Source of the DNA: Mayamaea pseudoterrestris
Taxonomy: Eukaryota
Length of the DNA: 64,000 nucleotides
Direction of reading: 5' to 3'
Assembly (NCBI GenBank): GCA_027923505.1
Contig: BROI01000006.1
Span: forward strand, 372,001-436,000
The translations under genes were made by a program, and so were the position numbers. Shown here piece after piece: positions 18,545 through 30,293 of this stretch. A model generated the notes under the pieces. The model searched no databases and had not been told where the DNA came from. It worked only from the letters and a program-made list of their open reading frames with translations. How positions within the stretch are numbered: position 1 is the first letter of the stretch; each line of letters starts with the position of its first letter.

Positions 18545-21515
18545 ATGAAATCCAATAAGCAGCAGCAACACCGAGGCGACGAGCAGCCGCAGCAACCCGA
18601 CGCTGCACCACCTTCTTCCACCAAGCATCACCATCGCTCGCCGCAGCAAAAATCATCCTGGACGCCATCGTTGAAAAAGGTATTGCTGCGTGGGCACGAG
18701 CGCTGCCAATCGTCCGGTAGCGCCACCAACACTACCGCTGGACTGAGCGTTTCGCCGGCGTCCTCGATTGTTTCGGCGCATGCAGCGACAGGCTTGCGAC
18801 AATCATCGCTTTCAGGAAGTCTTGCAGCGTCACCGCAACATGGTCATTATACTAACTCGTCCAGTCAGCAGCACCAGCAATCATATTCACTCGGCAAGCT
18901 TGCCGAGCATGACAACGACGACCATGTTCCGCCGCCACCCATTGACGCGACGCCACCCTCACCCAAGACACCGCCCAAGCTGTGGGAGCGACAGTATCGC
19001 AACTTTTTGCAGTCGTCGAAACCACCAAAACGAAGTGTGCAGCGCAGCGCGAGTCGCGACGAACTGGACGAGTCGTCGTCAATGAATAATGGAGTTACAA
19101 GTGGTGCTCGCTCACTGCTGTTGCAGCAGCAGCACCGCTCCTCCTCGTTCCATCATCATCATGACACACCTCCCGTCGAGGAAGCGTCCGTCCGCGGCGG
19201 ACAGTTCTTCGCCAGCGTCTTTAAGTCGCATTCGCATCATAAACGAACCTCCAAAAGCAAGAGCCACAACGAGCTGGATGGCACCATGCGGCGGGGGTCG
19301 GAGAAGGGCTTGGCGCAAATGCAATTGCAGCAGCCGCCGCCACTGGCATTGTCCATGCAGCATCATCATCATGTTTCAAATGTTGATGAAGACAAGGCTA
19401 ATTATTCCAACTTGTCAGCGTCATCACTGCCCAACTTTCAAATGATTGCCAATAGGCAACAACAGCTATTGCTGCCACGGCGGCAACAAAGCGCGGGATC
19501 GGCGACGACTGCTGGAGCAAGCTTGCTACTAAACACGTTGCACTCGCCCAGCGAGGCGACGTTGGCTTTAAATAGTTTCAATGCCAGGGACGAAACATCT
19601 ACCAACAATAACAACGACGCCACGGCGGCATCCGCCATGAAGCGAGCATTCACCGAGTTTCACAACGTCACTGGGCGAGACGCGGCGTCGGCCTTTTTGG
19701 GCGACGACCCCAGTCACCGCGACGGAATGCGAGGCGGATCGTTCGTTGTCAACAACAGCAATCATCATGGCAACGTGAGTCACCTGCAGTCAGCCTTGGC
19801 GTCAACGTGCCTTTCGTCGTCCCATGGACGAGTCATACTGCCGCCAAAATCCTTGAACGCAATATATGGTCCGCGATCAGTTCCACTGGCAACGGACGGC
19901 TGCGGCAGCAACGTTGCTGGTACCAGTGTGGACTACGCCACGCAGCAACAGCAGCAACAACGAATATACTCTGGCAATCATACGTTGCGGAGAATCCTCA
20001 AGCCACTGGTTCCAGTCGAATCGTGGCAGTCGGGTCGACGCTACGTGATTGCGCCATCCGTGTGGGCGGCTTGCCCCATGGGAGTCATGGCGGCGTTGAC
20101 GCGCAATTCGGTCGTACGTTCCGCCCGAGACGTTACGAGCGCTCCGTTTGGCACGATACTGCTGGGGCAGTGTTTGCTCCGGAGCATGAGCACTGACGGT
20201 GCCGCGAAAAACGTGTTACTGGATGATGAGCCATGGACGCCAGCACTGCTCGTGTTGCGGCAAAATTACCTGCTCGAGTATGGCACGAGCGATCCTCTGG
20301 GCGGAATGCCTCGCGGGTATGCTCATTTGCAGCACGCAACTTGTTGTGACAATACTGACACTGGGGATACAGAGACAAGAAGGATATTGGAACTAGATTT
20401 TTATGGCAGCCCCTGCGCAAAGTCAGATCGTCGCCGTCTACTTATCCGGCCCGGCGAGCCAGCCGACTTCCAGCACTGGATTCAATGTTTAAATGCTGCG
20501 GGATCGCTGCAAGTATCAGACTTGTATGAATATGATGCAGACAACCCACTGGGTACTGGCAGCTACGCATCTGTCTTCGCTGCGCGGAGGAAGTGCTCCG
20601 GATCATCTGAGGCATGTGCGGTGAAGGTGTTTGACAAAACCCTGTTTTGGCGCTGTGTCATCAAAGGGCGAGAACGAGCGGATACAATCGTCCGCGAAGT
20701 TTCCGTTCAAGCGACCCTTACGGCTAGATGCAGCGATGTGCAATCCTTTTTGAGGATACGTGGGGTTTTTGAAACTACGGATCATGTGGTGATTGAGTCG
20801 GAGCTTTTGGACGGGATGGACTTATTTCGTTATATTTCCTCACGGCCTCGCTTGTCGGAAACAGAAGCAGCTTTCGTCATCTACAATATCTTAATCTGTC
20901 TTCAAGCCATGAATCGCATCGGTTTATCTCATCGCGATATAAAGCCGGCCAACATCCTTGTCTGTCATGAAGAAAATCGGCCACTGACTGTCAAGGTGGC
21001 TGACTTTGGCCTGGCAACGTTCGTCGGCGTCGATGGGAAAGTAAGCGGACGTTGTGGTACGCCTGGCTTTGCAGCACCGGTAAGCGACTACAATAAGCGG
21101 ATATATCAACAAAGGAGAAGTTAACGCGCGCTGACATTTCTTACTACAACAGGAAATCTTTAATACCGGTGTTCACGGTACCTACACCAAGAAGGTCGAT
21201 GTGTTCAGCGCTGGTGTGACTCTGTATGTAATGCTTTGCGGTTATGAACCATTTTACGGAGAAACGGATAGCGAACTTATACGGGCGAATAGGGAGGCGC
21301 ATATCGAGTTTCCTCCGGAAGAGTGGAAGTGCATTTCTTCACCGGCGCGCGAGCTTGTGATCAAAATGATGCACGCCGACCCAAGCAAGCGAATGTCAAT
21401 CGAGCAAGCAATCACTCATCCATGGATTATAGAGAATGTTCACGAGCAAGGAGATGTACCCGCCTTGGCGGAGGTGACGGAAATGCCTTCCTATGATGCT
21501 TGCATTATTTCATAG
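18545..21515 (+). CDS. CaMK-group Ser/Thr kinase with long Q/H/S-rich N-terminus, PH-like domain and C-terminal CaaX box. Exons 18545-21079 and 21153-21515
   Basis: GTGSYASV, AVK, HRDIKPANIL, ADFG, CGTPGFAAP|EI (APE restored by intron), DVFSAGV, CGYEPF. PH-like W...LLVLRQNYLLEY...WIQCL. Ends CIIS*. Confidence 0.88.
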
Positions 21516-21622: not shown

Positions 21623-23207
21623 TTATGCATGAGTGACCCGATGTCCTGACATTTTGCTCGTATTTTCAGGTTTTAAAATCACCCAATCGTCGAGATTGAC
21701 CCCTTCTTCGGCGGGACCCATACAAAGCGTGCATCCTAGCGCACGATTGGTGGCATCGGAAAGAGATGGCAGACGCAGAATTTCGTAGTTCACCTCGCCC
21801 ATCAGTCTGTGAGTTGCTTCCATTTCAGCAGTGCTCTCACCTAGTTCGTCTTGCATGTCCTCGAACGTGTGAAGTAGTTCAAGGGCTGGCGAAAATTGTT
21901 CCAGACGGACATGACAGATTATTTTCTTCCGAAGTATGTCAATTTTCTCCTCCGTTGGCATATCAGCTGTACTCATCGGGGCCCAGATCTCATCGAATGC
22001 CGCCAGGGCCTTGTCGTACTTGTTCAACATTGCATAAGCATACCCAAGATTGTCGAGTGAGCTCTGAACCAGTTTGTTGCCAGGGCCCAGAATAGATCGT
22101 TGTATCTTAAGAGAATCGGACAGAATCTTTATTGCTTGATCGAAATGATCGAGCTCAATCTCTACGTACCCCTTGTTGCACATGGTTGATGCCATTGTTA
22201 ATATGCCAGGGCTGGAACTATCAACTCCACAGACGAAGGTGACGAAATTTTTGAACACTGCCGTTTGCAAAACAATGGCCTCTTCAAAGGCTTCTTTCGC
22301 TTCTGGAAATGATCCTCGCTCAAAGTTGACGCATCCAATGTTGTTTAGTACCTTGGCAATCTTCAAGTTGCACTCCTCGCGGTCATCGTCGCCGTATGTA
22401 TCTTCTCGTTCTTCTCGACGAAGCTTCAGCGCCCGCTGAAACACTTTCAAGGAGTCGTCATGCTCTTCCATGGAGAGTAAAATAATACCAAGCTCAACCA
22501 AAGAGTCCTGAGCAAAAGAGATACGTGGGAAATTTGATCAGTTGACGTGAAATATGTATCAATGCATAAAAAATAAAGTTACACAAACACGCGCCAACTA
22601 CGAAGCCCTACTTACCGCCACTTTTGGATGAGAACGGCCAAGTGATCTTGACCGAATCTTGATCGCTTCTTCAATGGCGTCCATGGCGTCATCAAGGCTT
22701 CCTGCTCGTAAATTGGCAATTGCCACGTTGTGAAGGGCAGCACCGACTCGATCGTGTCGTTCGCCATAGCGCCCTAAAATATCGGAGAGGATGGATTCAA
22801 ACTGTGATAGCGCTGCCTTGTATGATCCATTCTGTATATGACGACAAAGAAATTATAGAATATGTATTAGTCCTTCCTTGTCTCTTTTCGACAGCTATTA
22901 GCAGCTAGTTTTCATTTCATTGGCTTACCGACATGGCCTTGCATGCTTTCGAGTGCTTGTATCGCAGTTGTCGCTCAAATCGTTCACAGTCCTCACTGTT
23001 ATCATCTAAGCTTTCTATATTATCAATATCTTCAGCATCAGTAGAGTTGCTCAGGTCGCTGAGATGGTGCGATTGTTCTTCCTCGTCCGCATCAACGACT
23101 TTCTTCCAGCTTTTGACACCCTTTGCATTCTTTGGTGCTGCATCTTTCGTCGGTCCTTGCGCGGACGAGGTGGATTTCGGTGACTTGGTGCGGTTGAAGA
23201 CCTTCAT
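21623..23207 (-). CDS. TPR-repeat protein (kinesin-light-chain-like ~42-aa TPRs). Exons 23207-22929, 22831-22616, 22507-21623
   Basis: Repeats such as VGAALHNVAIANLRAG...AIKIRSRSLGRSHPKVADSLVELG, AKVLNNIGCV and SSLDNLGYAY. Two phase-0 GTAAG...CAG introns join in frame. Confidence 0.85.
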
Positions 23208-23604
23208 GGTTCCTTTGGTGTAGTCGACGGATGCAGCAAGGCATTGTAAGTGGCGGCGATGGACATGTCGAACAAACAATCCTCAATTCCGTATACATAT
23301 CGTGCACCCGCCAAACAGCGACGATTAATTAGCGATTGGCAAGCGTAGTTAGATGACACGGTTCATAGCGGCACTGAAAAGTGTCGTCGGGCTGACTATT
23401 GGCGCGACGCGCGTTTCGATTCACGGGACTATGGTCGTTGGAGTACTCATGTCGGAAGCTCTCGCCGAAAGCCGCGCTCGAGTCGTTCGGTCCAACAACC
23501 TCATCAGTGCAAGGCAAACGATCACGCTGCCATTGCACAATTGTCACGAGCATAAACGGCGGACGTTCATTATTGCCAAAAATCAGAAAACTGACAGCCA
23601 TACC

Positions 23605-24160
23605 ATGAAGTATGTCAAAGCCTATTGTTGTTGTGGCGTCGAGTGTCTGGTACACTGGTACACAATCTGCTTCTAACCCACACATTTTGTTCTCCATCGT
23701 GTCGATCCGCAGGCTTCGCAATCCGTTTCGAATGTGCTCGGCAACACGCAAGGAAGGGAAAAAGTCGGCTCGCGAAGTCCGACAGGAGAAGATTGACAAC
23801 TACTACCATGCCACTCACCCGGCTGACAAGCCGGAGAAGGCGATTTCATTGGCCGATGAAAAGAAGGAGAGCAGCGTGGAGGAAGGAAAGTTTGCCGACA
23901 AGGGAACATCAACGTCGTTCCTAGACGAGAAGAAGGATAACGAACTGAACAAGCTTGCTCGAGTATCGGAAGCGACGGAAGACGACATTGATAGCGCCAA
24001 GGCGGAAGCGTCCAAGTCGTCGCTTCGTCGTGAGGTTGACAGTGACCATGAATCGGAGAAGGAAGAGCAGGAAGTGGTCTATGATGGAGCCGCTGGCCTA
24101 GAGAAATCGCCGAGCATGACGGAGCCAATGCCACTCTGCGGCGCTTGTGGATGCCTCTAA
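23605..24160 (+). CDS. Small acidic, likely disordered protein with C-terminal Cys cluster (LCGACGCL). Exons 23605-23609 and 23713-24160
   Basis: ATG AA|GTATGT...CTAAC...CGCAG|G CTT gives MKLRNPFRMCSATRK in frame with the E/K/D/S-rich ORF. Confidence 0.65.
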
Positions 24161-24497
24161 TTGTTGGCGCCTCGTGTTGTAATATTTACACGCATCAGCG
24201 TGACTTTGAAACACCCCTGACGAATTTGCGGGTGCCGAATACTTATAGTAGTCTTAGAAATTATGAATCTCTTAACTATCATTGTCCATTGTACTACCGG
24301 TACTATAGGCGTCGAAAATCTAATAGCCTTCATTCAGCCACTGACGCTGACGCGGACGGCTGTCACATTCTGCTTCATCGTGCTTTAAGAGCCTTACAGA
24401 GCGAGTGAAAAATTGCGCTACAGAGCGATTAAGCAATGGTTGCCCAGTGTCCAGTGTCTCGCAAAATCCAGTTCATACCTACACCAGTGCCAAGGCG

Positions 24498-24800
24498 ATT
24501 GACGCTGCATTTTCGCATATAGTTTTGCTTTTGCTTAAACTCAAACGTCAATTCATCAGCAGCGTCCGCAGTAACATCCATCGACCGCGCAATTTGCTTG
24601 TCGGGTAGCAAGTAAGGCGGAATAGCAATCGCAATCAGCTGATAGGTAAACACGTAAACCAGCAGTGACAATTGTCGCTGCATTTTCGCGTACAGTTTCA
24701 CTTTTGCACAAAATCACGCGTCGGTTTCATCAGCAGCATCCGTAGTGACATCCATCGTACTCTCCATTTCCTTGTCGGCTATCAAGTGAGGTGGAATGCC
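24498..24800. repeat. Diverged tandem duplication (~125-bp copies, ~173-bp period) of the 3' end of the FABP-like gene
   Basis: 24498-24626 aligns with 24671-24800. The downstream copy translates IPPYLLPDKQIARSMDVTADAADE versus the gene's IPPHLIADKEMESTMDVTTDAADE. Confidence 0.85.
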
Positions 24801-25286
24801 GTCGTAGGGCAGAAAGAATCTCGTCGTGGTGCTCGTCTCACCCGTTTGCTCGTTGCGTATCGATAGCGTCTGCTGCATGAACGCTCCATCTTCTGCCAAC
24901 TGCCGTTGATCCAAGACAGTCGCCAAACCATTGAGCGTATCAAGGGAGGACTTGATGAGGAAATCTTTCAGACCATTGGATGTCGCAACTTGTTTCTTGA
25001 CGCGCTCACCTGGCTTCAACAGCTCCACCAGTTCTTCACCAAGTCGCAGCTGTACGCAGAGATTATTGTTGACGCGACTAAATTTGTGTAGCGTCAGCTG
25101 CTTGTCGTCCAGTTCGATGGTTTGAATGGTATCTTGCTCCTGCTCGCCCTTTTCGTGGGCAAGGATCGCTAGCTCATCCAAATGCATCACTGCGAGGTAG
25201 TCCTTCATCGAGTAGGGCTTGGTTTTGTCCAAGATCCAAGAGCCGTTCAGTGATTCACGAGTAGCCGTTGCTGTTGGGGCCGACAT
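24714..25286 (-). CDS. Calycin/FABP-like lipid-binding protein (putative)
   Basis: LNGSWILDK...SMKDYLAVMHL resembles FABP G-x-W...FDxYMKALG. LRLGEELVE...GERVKKQVAT resembles FKLGEEFDE...GRKVKSVVT. First ATG at 25286. Confidence 0.55.
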   Translation of the reverse strand: MSAPTATATRESLNGSWILDKTKPYSMKDYLAVMHLDELAILAHEKGEQEQDTIQTIELDDKQLTLHKFSRVNNNLCVQLRLGEELVELLKPGERVKKQVATSNGLKDFLIKSSLDTLNGLATVLDQRQLAEDGAFMQQTLSIRNEQTGETSTTTRFFLPYDGIPPHLIADKEMESTMDVTTDAADETDA

Positions 25287-25685
25287 GTTTGAAAAGTATG
25301 TTTGGTACACTAAAGTAGAGAAGGTTTGAAAGTTGAAAGGGTGTTGCATATGCACAGGATCCGTCTCAAAGCTGCAGCGACCTGCATCGTGGTACGACAA
25401 GAAAGCTGATCATATCGGTACTCCTTACCGCTCTTACTAAATTCGTCATGCCCACGCAAACGAGCACCGGCGACCTCATCGACTTCCTTTGCTCCAACTG
25501 AAGGTACGCTCCTGCTTGTCTCTTTTGGATTGAATATATCAATTGTTTTGTTATCGTTGAAATTTAATAAAGAGCCGTACGCAAGCTCGATAGATTATGT
25601 CCACCTTGCATGATTTCGACGACGCCAGGCAATTCTCTCATACAGCAACAACACCTTTCCTTTCACACTTGCAGAATACAGAATC

Positions 25686-25874
25686 ATGGCGGAATCACGC
25701 AAACCAAACAAGCTTTACGCGACGCACCCCAAGGGATACGGAAAGGGCTCTCGCCAATGCCGCGTCACCGGCCGCATGGGAGGTAACGGATTGGTCCGAA
25801 AGTGGGGAATCAACATGAAGCGTCAAACCTTTCGCGAACGAGCATTGGACATGGGCTTTGAAAAGTACAGCTAG
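25686..25874 (+). CDS. RPS29: 40S ribosomal protein S29 (uS14), with only one of four Zn-binding Cys. Probable 5'UTR intron 25504-25674
   Basis: HPKGYGKGSRQCRV, GLVRKWGINM.RQ.FRERA.DMGFEKY matches eukaryotic S29. Upstream AAG|GTACG...TTGCAG| intron. Confidence 0.92.
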   Translation: MAESRKPNKLYATHPKGYGKGSRQCRVTGRMGGNGLVRKWGINMKRQTFRERALDMGFEKYS

Positions 25875-26891
25875 ACGAGAAATATTGTATTAATCTAGAA
25901 CACAAAATTTACTGACTAAGACATTGAGCTTTCGATCGTTCGTCGCTACTACGTGCACATTGTGATCGTGACTTGTGACTGTTCCCAAGTACTCGCGCGC
26001 AACTTCGAAAGGGAAGACTTTGATGTGAGCGCAACCATCGTTCCATTACCCTCGGAATTGTTTATTATTCGTAGATACAGAGTTTGCCGAAACGAGATGG
26101 ATTGCGTATCGCGTTCAAGAACGACTCTTCCGGGATACGTATTATTGCAGACTCTGTATTTTCAGCATGCTCCGAGTAGCGGACACCGTGGTTTATGACT
26201 ATCATTATCCCATCTCAGACTTCACCCATGTTCGTCCTCGTGAAAACTTGATTGCAAAATGGAACCGCACCGCATACGACTACGTTAAATGCTAGCACTT
26301 CGAACGGAGGCTTACGCCTCGAAAGTGAACCAACACGACAATCTTTTGTCATTACCTCTGCATTCTTTAAAATGCCATACGAACGAACCAGCTCTTGCCG
26401 TTTGTCTCGTCTCGTTTATTCAGTGATTGGGTATGACCGCTAAGCCTTCGGGGTACAGGACCGCATTGAGAAGTTGGTACGCTTTGCTAAAGCTCACCCA
26501 TTCACAACGAAATTGCACTGCTTCATCATTTCAAAAGTCATTGGACAATGAGTGGTGCAACCTTGTAGCAATATACCGCACGGTAGCAATATGATAGCCA
26601 TCTCCCGCCGCCGTCATTGTGAGAAACGCAACCATGGTCAATCGCTAGTGTTGCATAGTTCGGTCATTTTTCGTTTTCTATTTAGACACGAAGCACGCCG
26701 GCAGGGCGTCAAAACGTCATGGTCATTCCGTCAATTTTTGAATGGCCGAAAGGCGCGGCGGCCGCTGCTGGCAGTTTCGAGCCTGCGACCACCCCTGCAA
26801 CAGCAAGCAACAACTCCAACAGCTCTTGTTCAAACAGCGACTTGACAGTGCTACACGCAGTATTTATATAAAGACCGTAAAGTAGTTAAAC

Positions 26892-28247
26892 ATGGGTTGC
26901 GGCGCGTCAGCAGAAGCCGCTCCTTACGAGGCACCGGCTTCACCCACAGCAGCAGCGCCTTTGAAAAAGGTTGAACCAAGCCCTCAGGAGCTAGCCAAAT
27001 CTACGGGTATTGATCGTGAACTCGATCGCGCACGTCAACAGGAAGAGTTAAAGGTCAAATTGCTGCTACTCGGTGCTGGGGAATCGGGTAAATCAACCAT
27101 TTTCAAGCAAATGCGCATCCTGCATGGGTCACCCCGCACGGACGACGATCAGAAAATGTACGGAGTCATTGTAAGATCCAACGTTATCACAGCCATGCGC
27201 AAAATTTGTGCTCATTTGCGGACGCTCGGTTTGGAGGAGCAATTGGCGAATGATCCGACTCCAAATGGCGCGGAAATGTCGCCCAAGGAGGCGTACGATC
27301 TCATCATGTCGCACATTTTGGAAAGCAATGGAGATACTGCAAGTTTACCAAAGCCGCCGGCGGGTGACTGGGTTGGAGAGAGTGCGCGGGCTGGATTGAG
27401 TGCAAATAATGATGCCAAATTATTTTTGGCACTCTGGAAGCCGATGAAAATATTGTGGGAGGTATGTGCAAGAGTTACAAGACTCACGACAGAGAATGTG
27501 ACGAGACTATGTCAAGCTAACTATTTTGCCTAACTTTCGAATACTTCGTGAATTCTGCAGTCCAAAACCATGAAGGAAGTTTGGTCGAAGCGATCAGCCG
27601 TCAATGTGATTGATGGCCACAAGGACTACTTGAATGATCTTACTCGCATCGCTAGCCCTCAGTACAAGCCTTCGACGCAGGACGTTTTACTTGCTCGCGT
27701 CAAGACAACTCAAGTTGTCATGGAGCGATACCGCATTGATGGAATTGAATTTGAAATGTATGATGTTGGTGGCCAGCGTTCCGAGAGACGAAAATGGATC
27801 GACTGCTTTGAAAATGTCGATGCCGTCATCTTTGTGGCAGCACTCTCCGAGTTTGACCAAACTCTCGCCGAGGCGAAGCGGACAAACCGCATGGTGGAAG
27901 CCTTGGACTTGTTTCGATCCGTTTGCAACAATCGAGCGTTTGCAAACACGTCCATTATGCTATTTTTGAACAAAAAGGATGTGTTTGCCGAAAAAATCAT
28001 GTACAGCGACATTGCGGCGCAAAAGGCATTCGCTGACTACGCTGGACCACCCAAAGACTTCAACGCCGGTGTTCTGTACTTCATACAAAAGTTTAAAGAC
28101 TGTCTGATCGACGACGACTTCAATGACTCGTTTATCCACGTGACATGTGCGACGGATACGAACAACATGGAGTTTGTCCTTGATTCAACGAGAACAATCA
28201 TCATGACTGACAATCTCCGACGATCTGGCTTTTTGGGGTCTGGATAG
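26892..28247 (+). CDS. Heterotrimeric G protein alpha subunit. Exons 26892-27461 and 27561-28247
   Basis: N-terminal MGC lipidation motif, KLLLLGAGESGKSTIFKQM, RVKTT, DVGGQRSERRKW, FLNKKD, TCATDT. Intron GTATGT...CTAAC...GCAG. Confidence 0.96.
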
Positions 28248-28498
28248 AATGGAAAGATGATGGAATAAGAGCTTTGCTTTACAGTGTCTGTCTTTTTTTT
28301 AAATGTAACAACCGTACTTAGCTTGACTGCGCGCATCGAAATGTGCTATTGCGTACGCGACCATTTTTTGTACTTTGCACCACACTTGATTTGTTTTCAA
28401 TCTCTGCTGTTGCGCTTACGTAGCTCATGCCATCGTCGCCCCGAGTCCAGGAGTTGCTGGATCTACACTACTTTGATTTCCACTCATTCGTTGGCGAG

Positions 28499-28581
28499 AC
28501 TACCAACCGACGCTCCGATATAACTAATACAAGCAGACGGAAAGACTAACTACCAACGCTCCGACACAATCAATACAAGCA
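28499..28581. repeat. Short diverged direct repeat (~35 bp x2) between the convergent G-alpha and sterol reductase 3' ends
   Basis: actaccaaccgacgctccgatataactaatacaagca versus actaccaacgctccgacacaatcaatacaagca. Confidence 0.75.
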
Positions 28582-28745: not shown

Positions 28746-30293
28746 TTACACAAGACCTGGAAGAATCTTGTAAGGCACATGCTCGCAATATTGATCCCAG
28801 TATTTTCCGTACTTGGTTCGGCATCTGTCATCGTCGCGCCATGCTCGATCTGTGAGCAAGATCGTCAAGTAAATGACGTAAAAGTAAGGCCCCAGCACGG
28901 CAGAAACGCCTTCCTTGGGCATTCCAGCCGACACACTCCAGAAGAACGAGGCCAGAATTTCTGGCACGTAATGGAAGTGACGAGAAATCATCCACCATCC
29001 ATCCAGCAGTAGGAGCGAATCCTTCATTTGCCCGTCAGCCGTCATGTACTTGGCGACAATCTTTCGCGGCTCGCGTCCCCAAATTAAACACTTTCCCTGA
29101 GTTTGTCGAAAGACATATCGCTGACGGTCCGAGTCGTAGTTAATGGCGACGCAGGCAAAGCCAGCGAGAAAGATGAGCGCTGCACCCAAAACCGACCATT
29201 CCGGTCCATTCGTCGTCAAGTAGAAGGCCTGGCTCGTATACACCGCTGGTACCCATACCAAGCAACCCCAGCATATGTAGTAGCTATACAAGAATCATAG
29301 GAGAGAGCAAGAGGCAACTCAGCAAGATGGTCTTGCACGCGGAGGCAATACTCATTCCTCATACGTACCCGGCCCGATCATGCTGAATATCCATGCTGCA
29401 CATGTATCCCATCTCCCAAAAGAAGAACTTGGCTATGTAAACCAATTGAATAGCTACAGAGGCGGCAAGTCCCGGACTTAATCGCCCATGCGGATCAAGC
29501 TCCATGTTTTTAAAACAAAACGAGCAAATGGCCACGGCCCAAAACATCATACCCATGCGGCAATTTGTGAACAACTTCACGTCCCAACCGAGTATGCGAG
29601 GATATAATTCCATGCCCTGTGATGGATACGAAGTAATTGCATTAGCTTTTGCTTTGTTACCTTACTTCGCATGAATTACGCACACAGACAAAATTCCATC
29701 TCATTTTACGACTTTTTCGATCTTAAACTTACCCAGTAAAAGTCCTGAATAAGACTTCCATTTGATCCAGAGTCTGGTCCACTTGGAGAAACATTTCCTT
29801 TTACATAGAGCATGGCGCAGAAGCAGAGTGCAAAGACATTCATGGTCGAGATGACATTTCCAAAGTAGTCATACAGCAACGCCGGCTGCAACACATCAAA
29901 GTAGGCACCGACCAGTAAAAGTAGCATGGTAATGATGAAACATGCCATCCCATTAGCCTTGTACACGGGCCTGACGCCATTCGGAGTGATTGTACCGACA
30001 AACTCGCGGCCTGGAACCATCTTCATTAACGCAAGCTGCAGCAAGGCAAATGCACCGACGGCCTTCCAAACTCCAGGCAGCCATGGACTCGGCCAGATGC
30101 TATAAAGTGTTTTCAAGAGTCCAGTGGAAAACAAGTCGCGGCCAAACGCAAGGAAATCTCCCTGTCGCTGTGAAACGACATGGTAAAACACAATGCTAAA
30201 CGGAGGCGTGACGAGCATGAGAAAGAGCGGACCGAGGACGTCACGCTGTGGGATCAAGCCCTTCCCGGATGACCAGGTTGATGCAGTCGACAT
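28746..30293 (-). CDS. DHCR7: Sterol delta-7 reductase (DHCR7/DWF5; ERG4/ERG24 family). Exons 30293-29733, 29616-29369, 29283-28746
   Basis: YKANG, DFYW|GMELYPRI, FTNCRMGMM, MDIQHDRAG|YYICWGCLVWVP, SRHFHYVPEILASFFW, DRAWRDDDRCRTKYGKYW..YC..VPYKILPG. Confidence 0.92.

What the first reader, a model, noticed from the sequence alone, without database searches (positions are those of the whole stretch)
25686..25874. Zinc-finger-less eukaryotic ribosomal protein uS14/RPS29
Seen: CRVTGR and MKRQTF occupy the positions of the usual CRVC and MCRQCF, leaving one Cys. Known: eukaryotic S29 normally binds Zn through four Cys. Bacterial Zn-independent S14 (e.g. E. coli CRQTGR) shows the same CxxT-GR change, and Zn-free paralogs are induced under Zn limitation in some bacteria. 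Inference: convergent Zn sparing in an alga, as either the sole copy or a low-Zn paralog.
Basis: partly seen in the sequence, partly recalled or inferred. Interest (0 to 1): 0.72.

Follow-up and report, generated by a model that had tools for sequence, protein, structure and literature searches.

The report
Zinc-free ribosomal protein uS14 of diatoms
This is the ordinary cytosolic ribosomal protein uS14 (RPS29) gene of a diatom; it has lost three of its four zinc-binding cysteines, but diatoms and their algal relatives share that loss, and zinc-free uS14 is already known in yeasts, archaea and bacteria.

Summary
Window 25686-25874 (+) is an intronless 62-aa ORF that matches Pfam Ribosomal_S14 and cytosolic uS14/RPS29 chains of solved ribosomes. 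It has one Cys (C25). The other three Zn-ligand positions are Thr28, Lys45 and Thr48, and the loop between the two half-sites is two residues longer (Gly32-Gly33).

- **Lineage-wide form.** None of the 90 closest database proteins has more than two ligand Cys, and 88 carry the same longer loop. Named sources include at least ten diatom genera, two Parmales/bolidophytes and, in a later search, two dictyochophytes. The loss is therefore old and lineage-wide.
- **Second copy untested.** No whole genome is held, so a four-Cys copy elsewhere could not be looked for. The 64-kb window has none.
- **Not unprecedented in eukaryotes.** The best PDB matches, uS14 of Kluyveromyces lactis (3J80) and Schizosaccharomyces pombe (9AXT), also keep only one Cys. 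Other fungal and unnamed lineages lack ligands too.
- **Cause not shown.** Whether zinc economy drove the loss is open.

Verdict: a real, functional-looking, constitutive Zn-independent uS14, which is a new member of a known kind. Interest is modest.

The parts
25686..25874 (+). Intronless gene for cytosolic ribosomal protein uS14 (RPS29), 62 aa plus stop
   Evidence: ORF; Pfam PF00253 E 2.1e-10; 58 PDB uS14/S29 sequences at E<=0.001; full-length 62-aa homologs at 73-95% identity
25758..25760 (+). Cys25 (TGC), the only Zn-ligand position still Cys and the only Cys in the protein
   Evidence: column is Cys in 90% or more of 77 aligned homologs
25767..25769 (+). Thr28 (ACC) in place of the second ligand Cys
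   Evidence: alignment to S. cerevisiae uS14; codon; run variant 25769 C>T is synonymous
25779..25784 (+). Gly32-Gly33, a two-residue insertion in the loop between the two half-sites. The loop is 7 residues here against 5 in four-Cys forms
   Evidence: gap opposite these residues in all four printed PDB alignments; loop 7 in 88 of 90 close homologs and loop 5 in 92 of 93 four-Cys representatives
25818..25820 (+). Lys45 (AAG) in place of the third ligand Cys; nearly invariant in this type
   Evidence: K45 in 90% or more of the rows of alignment A1
25827..25829 (+). Thr48 (ACC) in place of the fourth ligand Cys; a variable position (T/V/A/S/C/E/Q among homologs)

Best explanation
The ORF is the working nuclear gene for the cytosolic 40S protein uS14 (RPS29) of a diatom, in a zinc-independent form. 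It keeps the short archaeal/eukaryotic architecture and the conserved C-terminal helix. Three of the four Zn-ligand cysteines are replaced (Thr28, Lys45, Thr48; Cys25 kept), and the loop between the half-sites carries two extra glycines. The same form is the standard uS14 in all sampled diatoms, in Parmales/bolidophytes and in dictyochophytes. It was therefore fixed in a common ancestor of these ochrophyte algae and is constitutive, not a strain-specific or recently evolved low-zinc spare. Inferred, not shown: the small knuckle fold is held without metal by rRNA contacts and side-chain packing, and the nearly invariant Lys45 together with the Gly-Gly loop compensates for the missing Zn site. 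This would parallel the one-Cys uS14 proteins that sit in the solved K. lactis and S. pombe ribosomes. The consequence is one Zn atom fewer per ribosome. Whether selection for zinc economy or neutral drift fixed the change is open.
For: - Identity as uS14. The AlphaFold2 model (mean pLDDT 70.3) gave 35 PDB matches at E<=0.001, and all 35 are uS14/S29/S14 chains of cytosolic or archaeal ribosomes. They include K. lactis 3j80_d (rmsd 2.7 over 49 columns) and S. pombe 9axt_Aj.
- Ancestral form: of 90 hits, 87 have one ligand Cys, 3 have two and none has more; 88 of 90 have the 7-residue loop.
- Named sources for diatoms: Thalassiosira oceanica, Seminavis robusta, and names cut short in the table as Amphi.., Steph.., Eucampi.., Lepto..; Amphora coffeiformis and Cyclostephanos tholiformis; Ditylum brightwellii and Chaetoceros neogracile.
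- Named sources outside diatoms: Triparma columacea and 'Parmales sp. scaly parma'; Rhizochromulina marina and Florenciella parvula, both Dictyochophyceae.
- Quick ML tree of 121 rows: this type forms one group of 35 rows (SH-aLRT 99), apart from all 67 four-Cys rows and from the fungal Zn-less group.
- Purifying selection is suggested: the two run variants listed in the ORF are synonymous, and homologs are 73-95% identical over the full length.
- Transcription: several homologs carry MMETSP transcript names. Run X4 shows a GT..AG skip 27459->27559 inside the neighbouring G-alpha gene that the other three runs lack, so it looks RNA-derived, and its contigs cover the ORF. This is a weak hint only.
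- A one-Cys uS14 can function: K. lactis 40S (3J80; PMC4217140, passages) and S. pombe 80S (9AXT; PMC11461667, passages) have uS14 chains with one Cys. A table in PMC11508205 lists rps29 with copy number 1 in what I read as its S. pombe column (passage only; headers not seen).
Against: - No whole genome is held, so a second, four-Cys uS14 gene in this organism or in other diatoms is not excluded. The searches list only the best hits to Zn-less queries and would not show such a paralog.
- Most homologs come from unnamed environmental assemblies, so the taxon list rests on about 16 named sources.
- The tree is the quick search with 53 columns. The ligand columns and the insertion themselves contribute to the grouping.
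- The model is of moderate confidence and no coordinates were inspected, so the role given to Lys45 and Gly-Gly is inference.
- Direct expression or ribosome incorporation of this very gene is not shown.
- Nothing tested bears on adaptive value. Zn-less uS14 also occurs in fungi whose habitats I take, from general knowledge rather than any call, not to be zinc-poor, which fits neutral loss as well.
Confidence: 0.75

Rival explanations
1. Low-zinc paralog: the genome also has a canonical four-Cys RPS29 used when zinc is plentiful, and this gene is switched on under zinc limitation, as with the bacterial C+/C- S14 pairs.
For: Such pairs exist in bacteria (PMC13090322 and PMC11508205, passages). 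Zn-coordinating/Zn-free gene pairs for ribosomal proteins are reported for the eukaryote Encephalitozoon cuniculi (PMC8807834, passage). A second copy could not be searched for because no genome is held.
Against: The Zn-less form is conserved at 73-95% identity across diatoms, Parmales and dictyochophytes. It appears under MMETSP transcript names; I take these to be standard cultures, which is general knowledge and not a call. The 64-kb window has no second uS14-like sequence in six frames: the best off-target tblastn hit has E 0.015 over 24 residues. In S. pombe the Zn-less protein is in the ribosome and the gene is listed as single.
Confidence: 0.1
2. Adaptive zinc sparing: the loss was fixed by selection for a lower cellular zinc quota in zinc-poor surface seawater. 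This rival concerns the cause; it is compatible with the best explanation of what the gene is.
For: The lineages named as carrying this type are mostly marine phytoplankton. The substitution removes one Zn per ribosome (inference from the ligand loss).
Against: No test of selection, quota or expression was possible. Cyclostephanos tholiformis, which I recall as a freshwater diatom (recalled, not from a call), keeps the form. Independent losses occur in yeasts and filamentous fungi. It was not tested whether other zinc-binding ribosomal proteins of diatoms also lost their Cys.
Confidence: 0.3
3. Decayed or extraribosomal copy: a retrocopy-like, intronless gene that no longer serves the ribosome.
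For: The gene is intronless and short. No run on record as RNA was available to lay (see Tried and rejected).
Against: The frame is intact and full-length, with a start and stop matching the 62-aa homologs. The variants listed are synonymous only. The same form is the only one recovered from many diatoms.
Confidence: 0.03

Closest known systems
uS14 (Rps29) of Kluyveromyces lactis (PDB 3J80, 5IT7) and Schizosaccharomyces pombe (PDB 9AXT)
   Same: Both are short eukaryotic uS14 in solved cytosolic ribosomes with only the first ligand Cys left. They are the best sequence matches in the PDB (E 4.4e-16 and 2.9e-15). S. pombe even has T-G-R after the Cys, as here.
   Different: The yeast proteins keep the 5-residue loop, with no Gly-Gly insertion. 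They have Asp or Ser, not Lys, at the third ligand position. They are independent losses within fungi; their sister yeast S. cerevisiae has four Cys.
Canonical four-Cys RPS29/uS14 (S. cerevisiae, animals, plants)
   Same: Same family, length class and C-terminal helix; 50-57% identity in the fold matches.
   Different: The canonical forms have two CxxC pairs and a 5-residue loop. Here there is one Cys and a 7-residue loop.
Bacterial Zn-free (C-) S14 paralogs, e.g. Bacillus subtilis RpsNB, expressed under zinc limitation
   Same: Loss of the Cys ligands in the same protein family (PMC13090322 and PMC11508205, passages).
   Different: The bacterial cases are paralogs beside a C+ copy and are regulated by zinc. 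Here the form is lineage-wide and no partner is known. That bacterial C- S14 are the long (~100 aa) type is recalled, not tested here.
Haloarchaeal S14 (e.g. Halorubrum sp., WP_418285217.1)
   Same: A short type with the same CRVTGR motif and one Cys; it was the only non-eukaryotic hit (P0090; named).
   Different: 52 aa, 5-residue loop, Ser rather than Lys at the third ligand position. It is archaeal. Two distant uS14 paralogs occur in about 20% of haloarchaeal genomes (PMC8305020, passage).
Zn-less uS14 of Pezizomycotina (Hortaea werneckii, Diaporthe spp.)
   Same: One ligand Cys and also a 7-residue loop.
   Different: The loop is Asp-Lys-Lys-Lys-x-Gly, not x-Gly-Gly-x-Gly, and the third position is Ser. 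It forms a separate group (SH-aLRT 98) among rows that are otherwise four-Cys.

Membership tests
Ribosomal protein uS14 / S29e (Pfam PF00253) | Profile match above the curated cut-off | tested here: met
   40.6 bits against cut-off 27, E 2.1e-10, profile positions 3-54 of 54
Ribosomal protein uS14 / S29e (Pfam PF00253) | Short (about 50-65 aa) archaeal/eukaryotic architecture with a conserved C-terminal helix | tested here: met
   62 aa; aligned end to end with 53-56-aa cytosolic uS14 chains; helix 46-56 in the model and uS14 fold matches
Ribosomal protein uS14 / S29e (Pfam PF00253) | Physical presence in the 40S subunit | not testable with these tools
   No diatom ribosome is in the PDB copy; the best PDB hits are fungal
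Zn-binding (C+) uS14 subtype | Four Cys in two CxxC pairs | tested here: not met
   The ligand columns read C, T, K, T
Zinc-limitation-induced C- paralog (bacterial Zur-type system) | A C+ paralog in the same genome | not testable with these tools
   No genome held; none in the 64-kb window
Zinc-limitation-induced C- paralog (bacterial Zur-type system) | Expression induced by zinc limitation | not testable with these tools
   No expression data under defined zinc conditions were available
Zinc-limitation-induced C- paralog (bacterial Zur-type system) | Cys ligands lost | tested here: met
Constitutive Zn-free uS14 as sole copy (as in S. pombe) | The Zn-less form is conserved across the whole lineage | tested here: met
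   90 of 90 hits have two or fewer ligand Cys; named diatoms, Parmales and dictyochophytes
Constitutive Zn-free uS14 as sole copy (as in S. pombe) | Only uS14 gene in the genome | not testable with these tools

The most novel reading that the evidence does not exclude
The Gly-Gly/Lys type of uS14 is a deep shared character of a large block of marine ochrophyte algae (diatoms, Parmales, dictyochophytes, and perhaps more, including the form seen in a dinoflagellate transcriptome). It would then be the sole uS14 of their ribosomes and would have been fixed under selection for a lower zinc quota. That would make it a case of a major eukaryotic phytoplankton lineage permanently removing a zinc site from its ribosome, with Lys45 standing in for the metal.
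Probability: 0.25. Interest if true: 0.5.

Novelty: new member of a known kind. Interest (0 to 1): 0.3.

Why it matters
Zinc limits phytoplankton in parts of the ocean, and ribosomes are a large zinc pool in bacteria. A permanently zinc-free uS14 in diatoms and related algae would slightly lower their ribosomal zinc demand. It would also be a clean natural example of how a zinc knuckle is replaced without loss of function. A 2026 survey of six model organisms states that Rps29/uS14 keeps its CxxC motifs across eukaryotes (PMC13090322, passages), so the breadth of Zn-less eukaryotic uS14 seen here seems under-appreciated. The effect is still one atom per ribosome. The phenomenon is known in bacteria, archaea and, at the level of deposited structures, in yeasts. 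The diatom sequences are already public and annotated as S29e.

Tried and rejected
- **Whole-genome search for a second copy:** not possible, because no genome is held for this window. tblastn of five four-Cys or related uS14 proteins and one close homolog against the window found only the ORF itself.
- **The look-up of sequencing runs:** no RNA holder listed.
- **Read laying:** all four runs are contigs, so depth cannot rank expression. The RNA-like nature of X4 is inferred only from one spliced joint.
- **ESM Atlas:** it does not hold the sequence or a stored homolog.
- **Earlier findings of this scan:** nothing by place, sequence or words.
- **Literature:** full-text searches found no paper describing a Zn-less uS14/RPS29 in diatoms or other algae. 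The term sets were RPS29+zinc+diatom (3 papers); diatom+zinc+ribosomal protein+zinc-free (2 papers); S29+zinc+Thalassiosira+ribosomal (8 papers); and the six terms ribosomal protein, zinc-binding, lost, cysteines, uS14, eukaryotes (2 papers). These were judged from listings and abstract starts only. 'ribosomal protein S29'+zinc+S. pombe+cysteines gave 0 papers. The K. lactis and S. pombe structure papers have 0 occurrences of 'zinc'. The 2001 paper on recurrent disruption of Zn-ribbons was not itself among the listed hits, so what it says about eukaryotes was not seen. Supplements were not opened.
- **Careful ML tree:** it did not finish in 300 s, so only the quick tree is reported. P0193 (dinoflagellate) was dropped from the tree because fewer than 44 residues aligned.
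- **P0122** (2784 aa, 13 stretches) is a repetitive protein with no uS14 motif and was set aside as spurious.
- **Naming of Zn-less groups:** largely failed for the unnamed marine groups, and all three cluster-member runs were used.
not checked by any search.

Full report
**What is there.** Window 25686..25874 (+) is an uninterrupted ATG-to-TAG ORF of 62 codons.
- Its product matches Pfam PF00253 (Ribosomal_S14: S14p/S29e) at E 2.1e-10, 40.6 bits against a curated cut-off of 27.
- It matches 58 distinct uS14/S29 chain sequences of solved ribosomes at E<=0.001.
- It has exactly one cysteine, C25.
- In the printed alignment to S. cerevisiae uS14 (3j6x_29), Thr28, Lys45 and Thr48 lie opposite the second, third and fourth Cys of the two CxxC pairs. 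Gly32-Gly33 lie opposite a two-residue gap.
- The replacing codons are ACC, AAG and ACC. They are 2, 3 and 2 substitutions away from a Cys codon, so this is not a base-calling slip.
- Contigs of four public runs laid on 23500-28500 list only two differences inside the ORF, 25724 G>A and 25769 C>T. Both are synonymous third positions of Thr codons. One search did not show 172 less-supported differences in the 5-kb stretch.

**Surroundings.**
- The window is about 47-52% G+C throughout.
- The neighbouring ORFs are eukaryotic nuclear genes: a protein kinase (18545-21124 +), a TPR protein (21623-22471 -), a G-protein alpha subunit in two exons (26892-27533 and 27570-28247 +) and an ERG4/ERG24 fragment (29706-30293 -).
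- No second uS14-like sequence lies in the 64 kb. The best off-target tblastn hit has E 0.015 over 24 residues.
- No whole genome is held for the window.

**How widespread the form is.** The word-indexed search of 5.8 billion proteins returned 90 hits at E<=0.001 among 91 candidates. I classified them by the four ligand columns and the loop length.
- 87 have one ligand Cys, 3 have two (a Cys at the fourth position) and none has three or four.
- 88 of 90 have the 7-residue loop with Gly-Gly.
- The two exceptions are a haloarchaeal S14 (P0090; a cluster member is named Halorubrum sp.) and a 58-aa prediction with a deletion (P0083).
- Source names include Thalassiosira oceanica, Seminavis robusta, Triparma columacea and MMETSP entries cut short in the table (Amphi.., Steph.., Eucampi.., Lepto..).
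- Later calls add Amphora coffeiformis and Cyclostephanos tholiformis, Ditylum brightwellii and Chaetoceros neogracile, and 'Parmales sp. scaly parma'.
- With a profile of the non-diatom variants, Rhizochromulina marina and Florenciella parvula appeared. Both are Dictyochophyceae by the taxonomy look-up.
- A dinoflagellate transcriptome (Yihiella yeosuensis) also carries the type, at the C-terminus of 133-176-aa ORFs. I cannot tell whether that is native or from prey.
- The form is thus at least as old as the common ancestor of diatoms, Parmales and dictyochophytes. 'Ancestral' is shown here; 'constitutive' is likely but not proven.

**Zn-less uS14 elsewhere in eukaryotes.**
- The two best PDB matches also have a single Cys. 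They are K. lactis 40S (3J80; PMC4217140, passages) and S. pombe 80S (9AXT; PMC11461667, passages). Neither paper mentions zinc (0 occurrences).
- The exhaustive HMMER search of 1.84 billion cluster representatives gave 561 hits at E<=0.001. Of the 150 listed, 149 could be aligned; the other, P0122, is a spurious repeat protein.
- Among those 149, 93 have four ligand Cys (92 with loop 5, one with loop 6), 1 has three (P0140, whose second repeat has four), 5 have two, 46 have one and 4 have none. This list is the top of a ranking by likeness to a Zn-less query, so the fractions are not population estimates.
- Named Zn-less lineages outside the algal type are Hortaea werneckii and Diaporthe spp. 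(one Cys, and also a 7-residue loop but of different sequence), Starmerella bacillaris 'S29B' (two Cys) and Jaminaea rosea (one Cys).
- In a quick ML tree (121 rows, 53 columns, SH-aLRT only) the algal type is one group of 35 rows with support 99. It lies apart from all 67 four-Cys rows and from the fungal 7-loop group, which has support 98. The ligand columns and the insertion help to drive this grouping, and the careful search did not finish.
- Loss of the zinc site in eukaryotic uS14 is therefore recurrent. The algal Gly-Gly/Lys type is one old instance of it.

**How it most likely works.**
- Shown: the protein is a full-length, conserved uS14. Its AlphaFold2 model (77-row alignment, mean pLDDT 70.3) gave 35 PDB matches at E<=0.001, and all 35 are uS14/S29/S14 chains of cytosolic or archaeal ribosomes, including the one-Cys K. 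lactis chain at rmsd 2.7 over 49 columns.
- Shown by others' structures: a one-Cys uS14 sits in working yeast ribosomes.
- Inferred: the knuckle is held by rRNA contacts and side-chain packing instead of Zn. Within the algal type, Lys45 and the two glycines are nearly invariant, while position 48 varies freely (T/V/A/S/C/E/Q). This points to Lys45 and the longer loop as the compensating features. No coordinates were inspected, so this remains a hypothesis.
- Cys25 is kept in most Zn-less lineages but is Ser in one unnamed marine group, so it is not indispensable.

**Expression.**
- Several homologs carry MMETSP transcript names, so the type is transcribed in other diatoms.
- For this locus the evidence is weak. 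Run X4, whose kind is not on record, shows a GT..AG skip 27459->27559 inside the G-alpha gene that runs X1-X3 lack, and it covers only 18 of 30 bins. It therefore looks RNA-derived, and its contigs cover the ORF.

**Comparison and novelty.**
- The gene is a member of the uS14/S29e family: profile, length class and fold are all met. It is not a member of the Zn-binding subtype, because the ligand test is not met.
- It works like the constitutive Zn-free uS14 of S. pombe rather than like the zinc-regulated bacterial C- paralogs. The defining features of the latter, a C+ partner and induction, could not be tested.
- Eukaryotic pairs of Zn-coordinating and Zn-free ribosomal protein genes are reported for E. 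cuniculi (PMC8807834, passage), so the paralog idea is not absurd, only unsupported here.
- Five full-text searches found no description of a Zn-less uS14 in algae. A 2026 paper states that Rps29/uS14 keeps its CxxC motifs across eukaryotes on the basis of six model organisms (PMC13090322, passages).
- The sequences themselves are public and annotated as S29e. I rate this a new member of a known kind, with modest interest.

**Open questions.** These are whether a four-Cys copy exists elsewhere in diatom genomes, whether other Cys4 ribosomal proteins of diatoms are also altered, how far the type reaches within stramenopiles and beyond, and whether zinc economy or drift fixed it.

Noticed in passing
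window 26892-28247 (+): A G-protein alpha subunit gene lies in two ORFs (Pfam G-alpha positions 3-91 and 126-333). Run X4 joins 27459 to 27559 with GT..AG ends, which is a spliced intron of about 99 bases. Runs X1-X3 do not show the joint.
   Followed up: partly
window 24452-24837, 25215-25596 and 26334-26740: Runs X1 and X2 each hold two contig versions of some stretches (for example 6 against 29 differences), and there are small indels just upstream of the uS14 gene (after 25347 and 25349). This looks like two haplotypes or strain differences. The coding region shows only synonymous changes among the differences listed.
   Followed up: no
proteins P0138 and P0145 (clusters named Hortaea werneckii and Diaporthe spp.): Filamentous ascomycetes have a one-Cys uS14 whose inter-knuckle loop is also two residues longer, but built of Asp-Lys-Lys-Lys. 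A longer loop thus accompanies Cys loss in two separate lineages. Whether these fungi also keep a four-Cys copy was not checked.
   Followed up: no
proteins P0137, P0141 and P0148 (clusters of 15, 14 and 5 members, mostly ENA marine assemblies): An unnamed 56-aa group of the algal Gly-Gly/Lys type has lost even the first Cys (Ser instead), so it has no ligand Cys at all. The taxon is unknown.
   Followed up: no
protein P0193 and its cluster (Yihiella yeosuensis transcriptome): A dinoflagellate transcriptome holds the algal Gly-Gly/Lys type at the C-terminus of 133-176-aa ORFs in several isoforms. It could be native, acquired, or from prey.
   Followed up: no
protein P0233 (55 aa, unnamed): A four-Cys uS14 with a 6-residue, glycine-rich loop was the only four-Cys representative without the 5-residue loop. 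It may be an intermediate state or an unrelated variant.
   Followed up: no
protein P0306 (133 aa, ENA contig): One predicted protein carries a truncated copy of the diatom-type uS14 followed by a complete one. This is either a partial tandem duplication or an assembly artefact.
   Followed up: no
protein P0122 (2784 aa): A long, repetitive Ser/Thr-rich protein scored E 6.5e-29 in 13 stretches in the representative search but has no uS14 motif. It is a false positive caused by repeats.
   Followed up: yes
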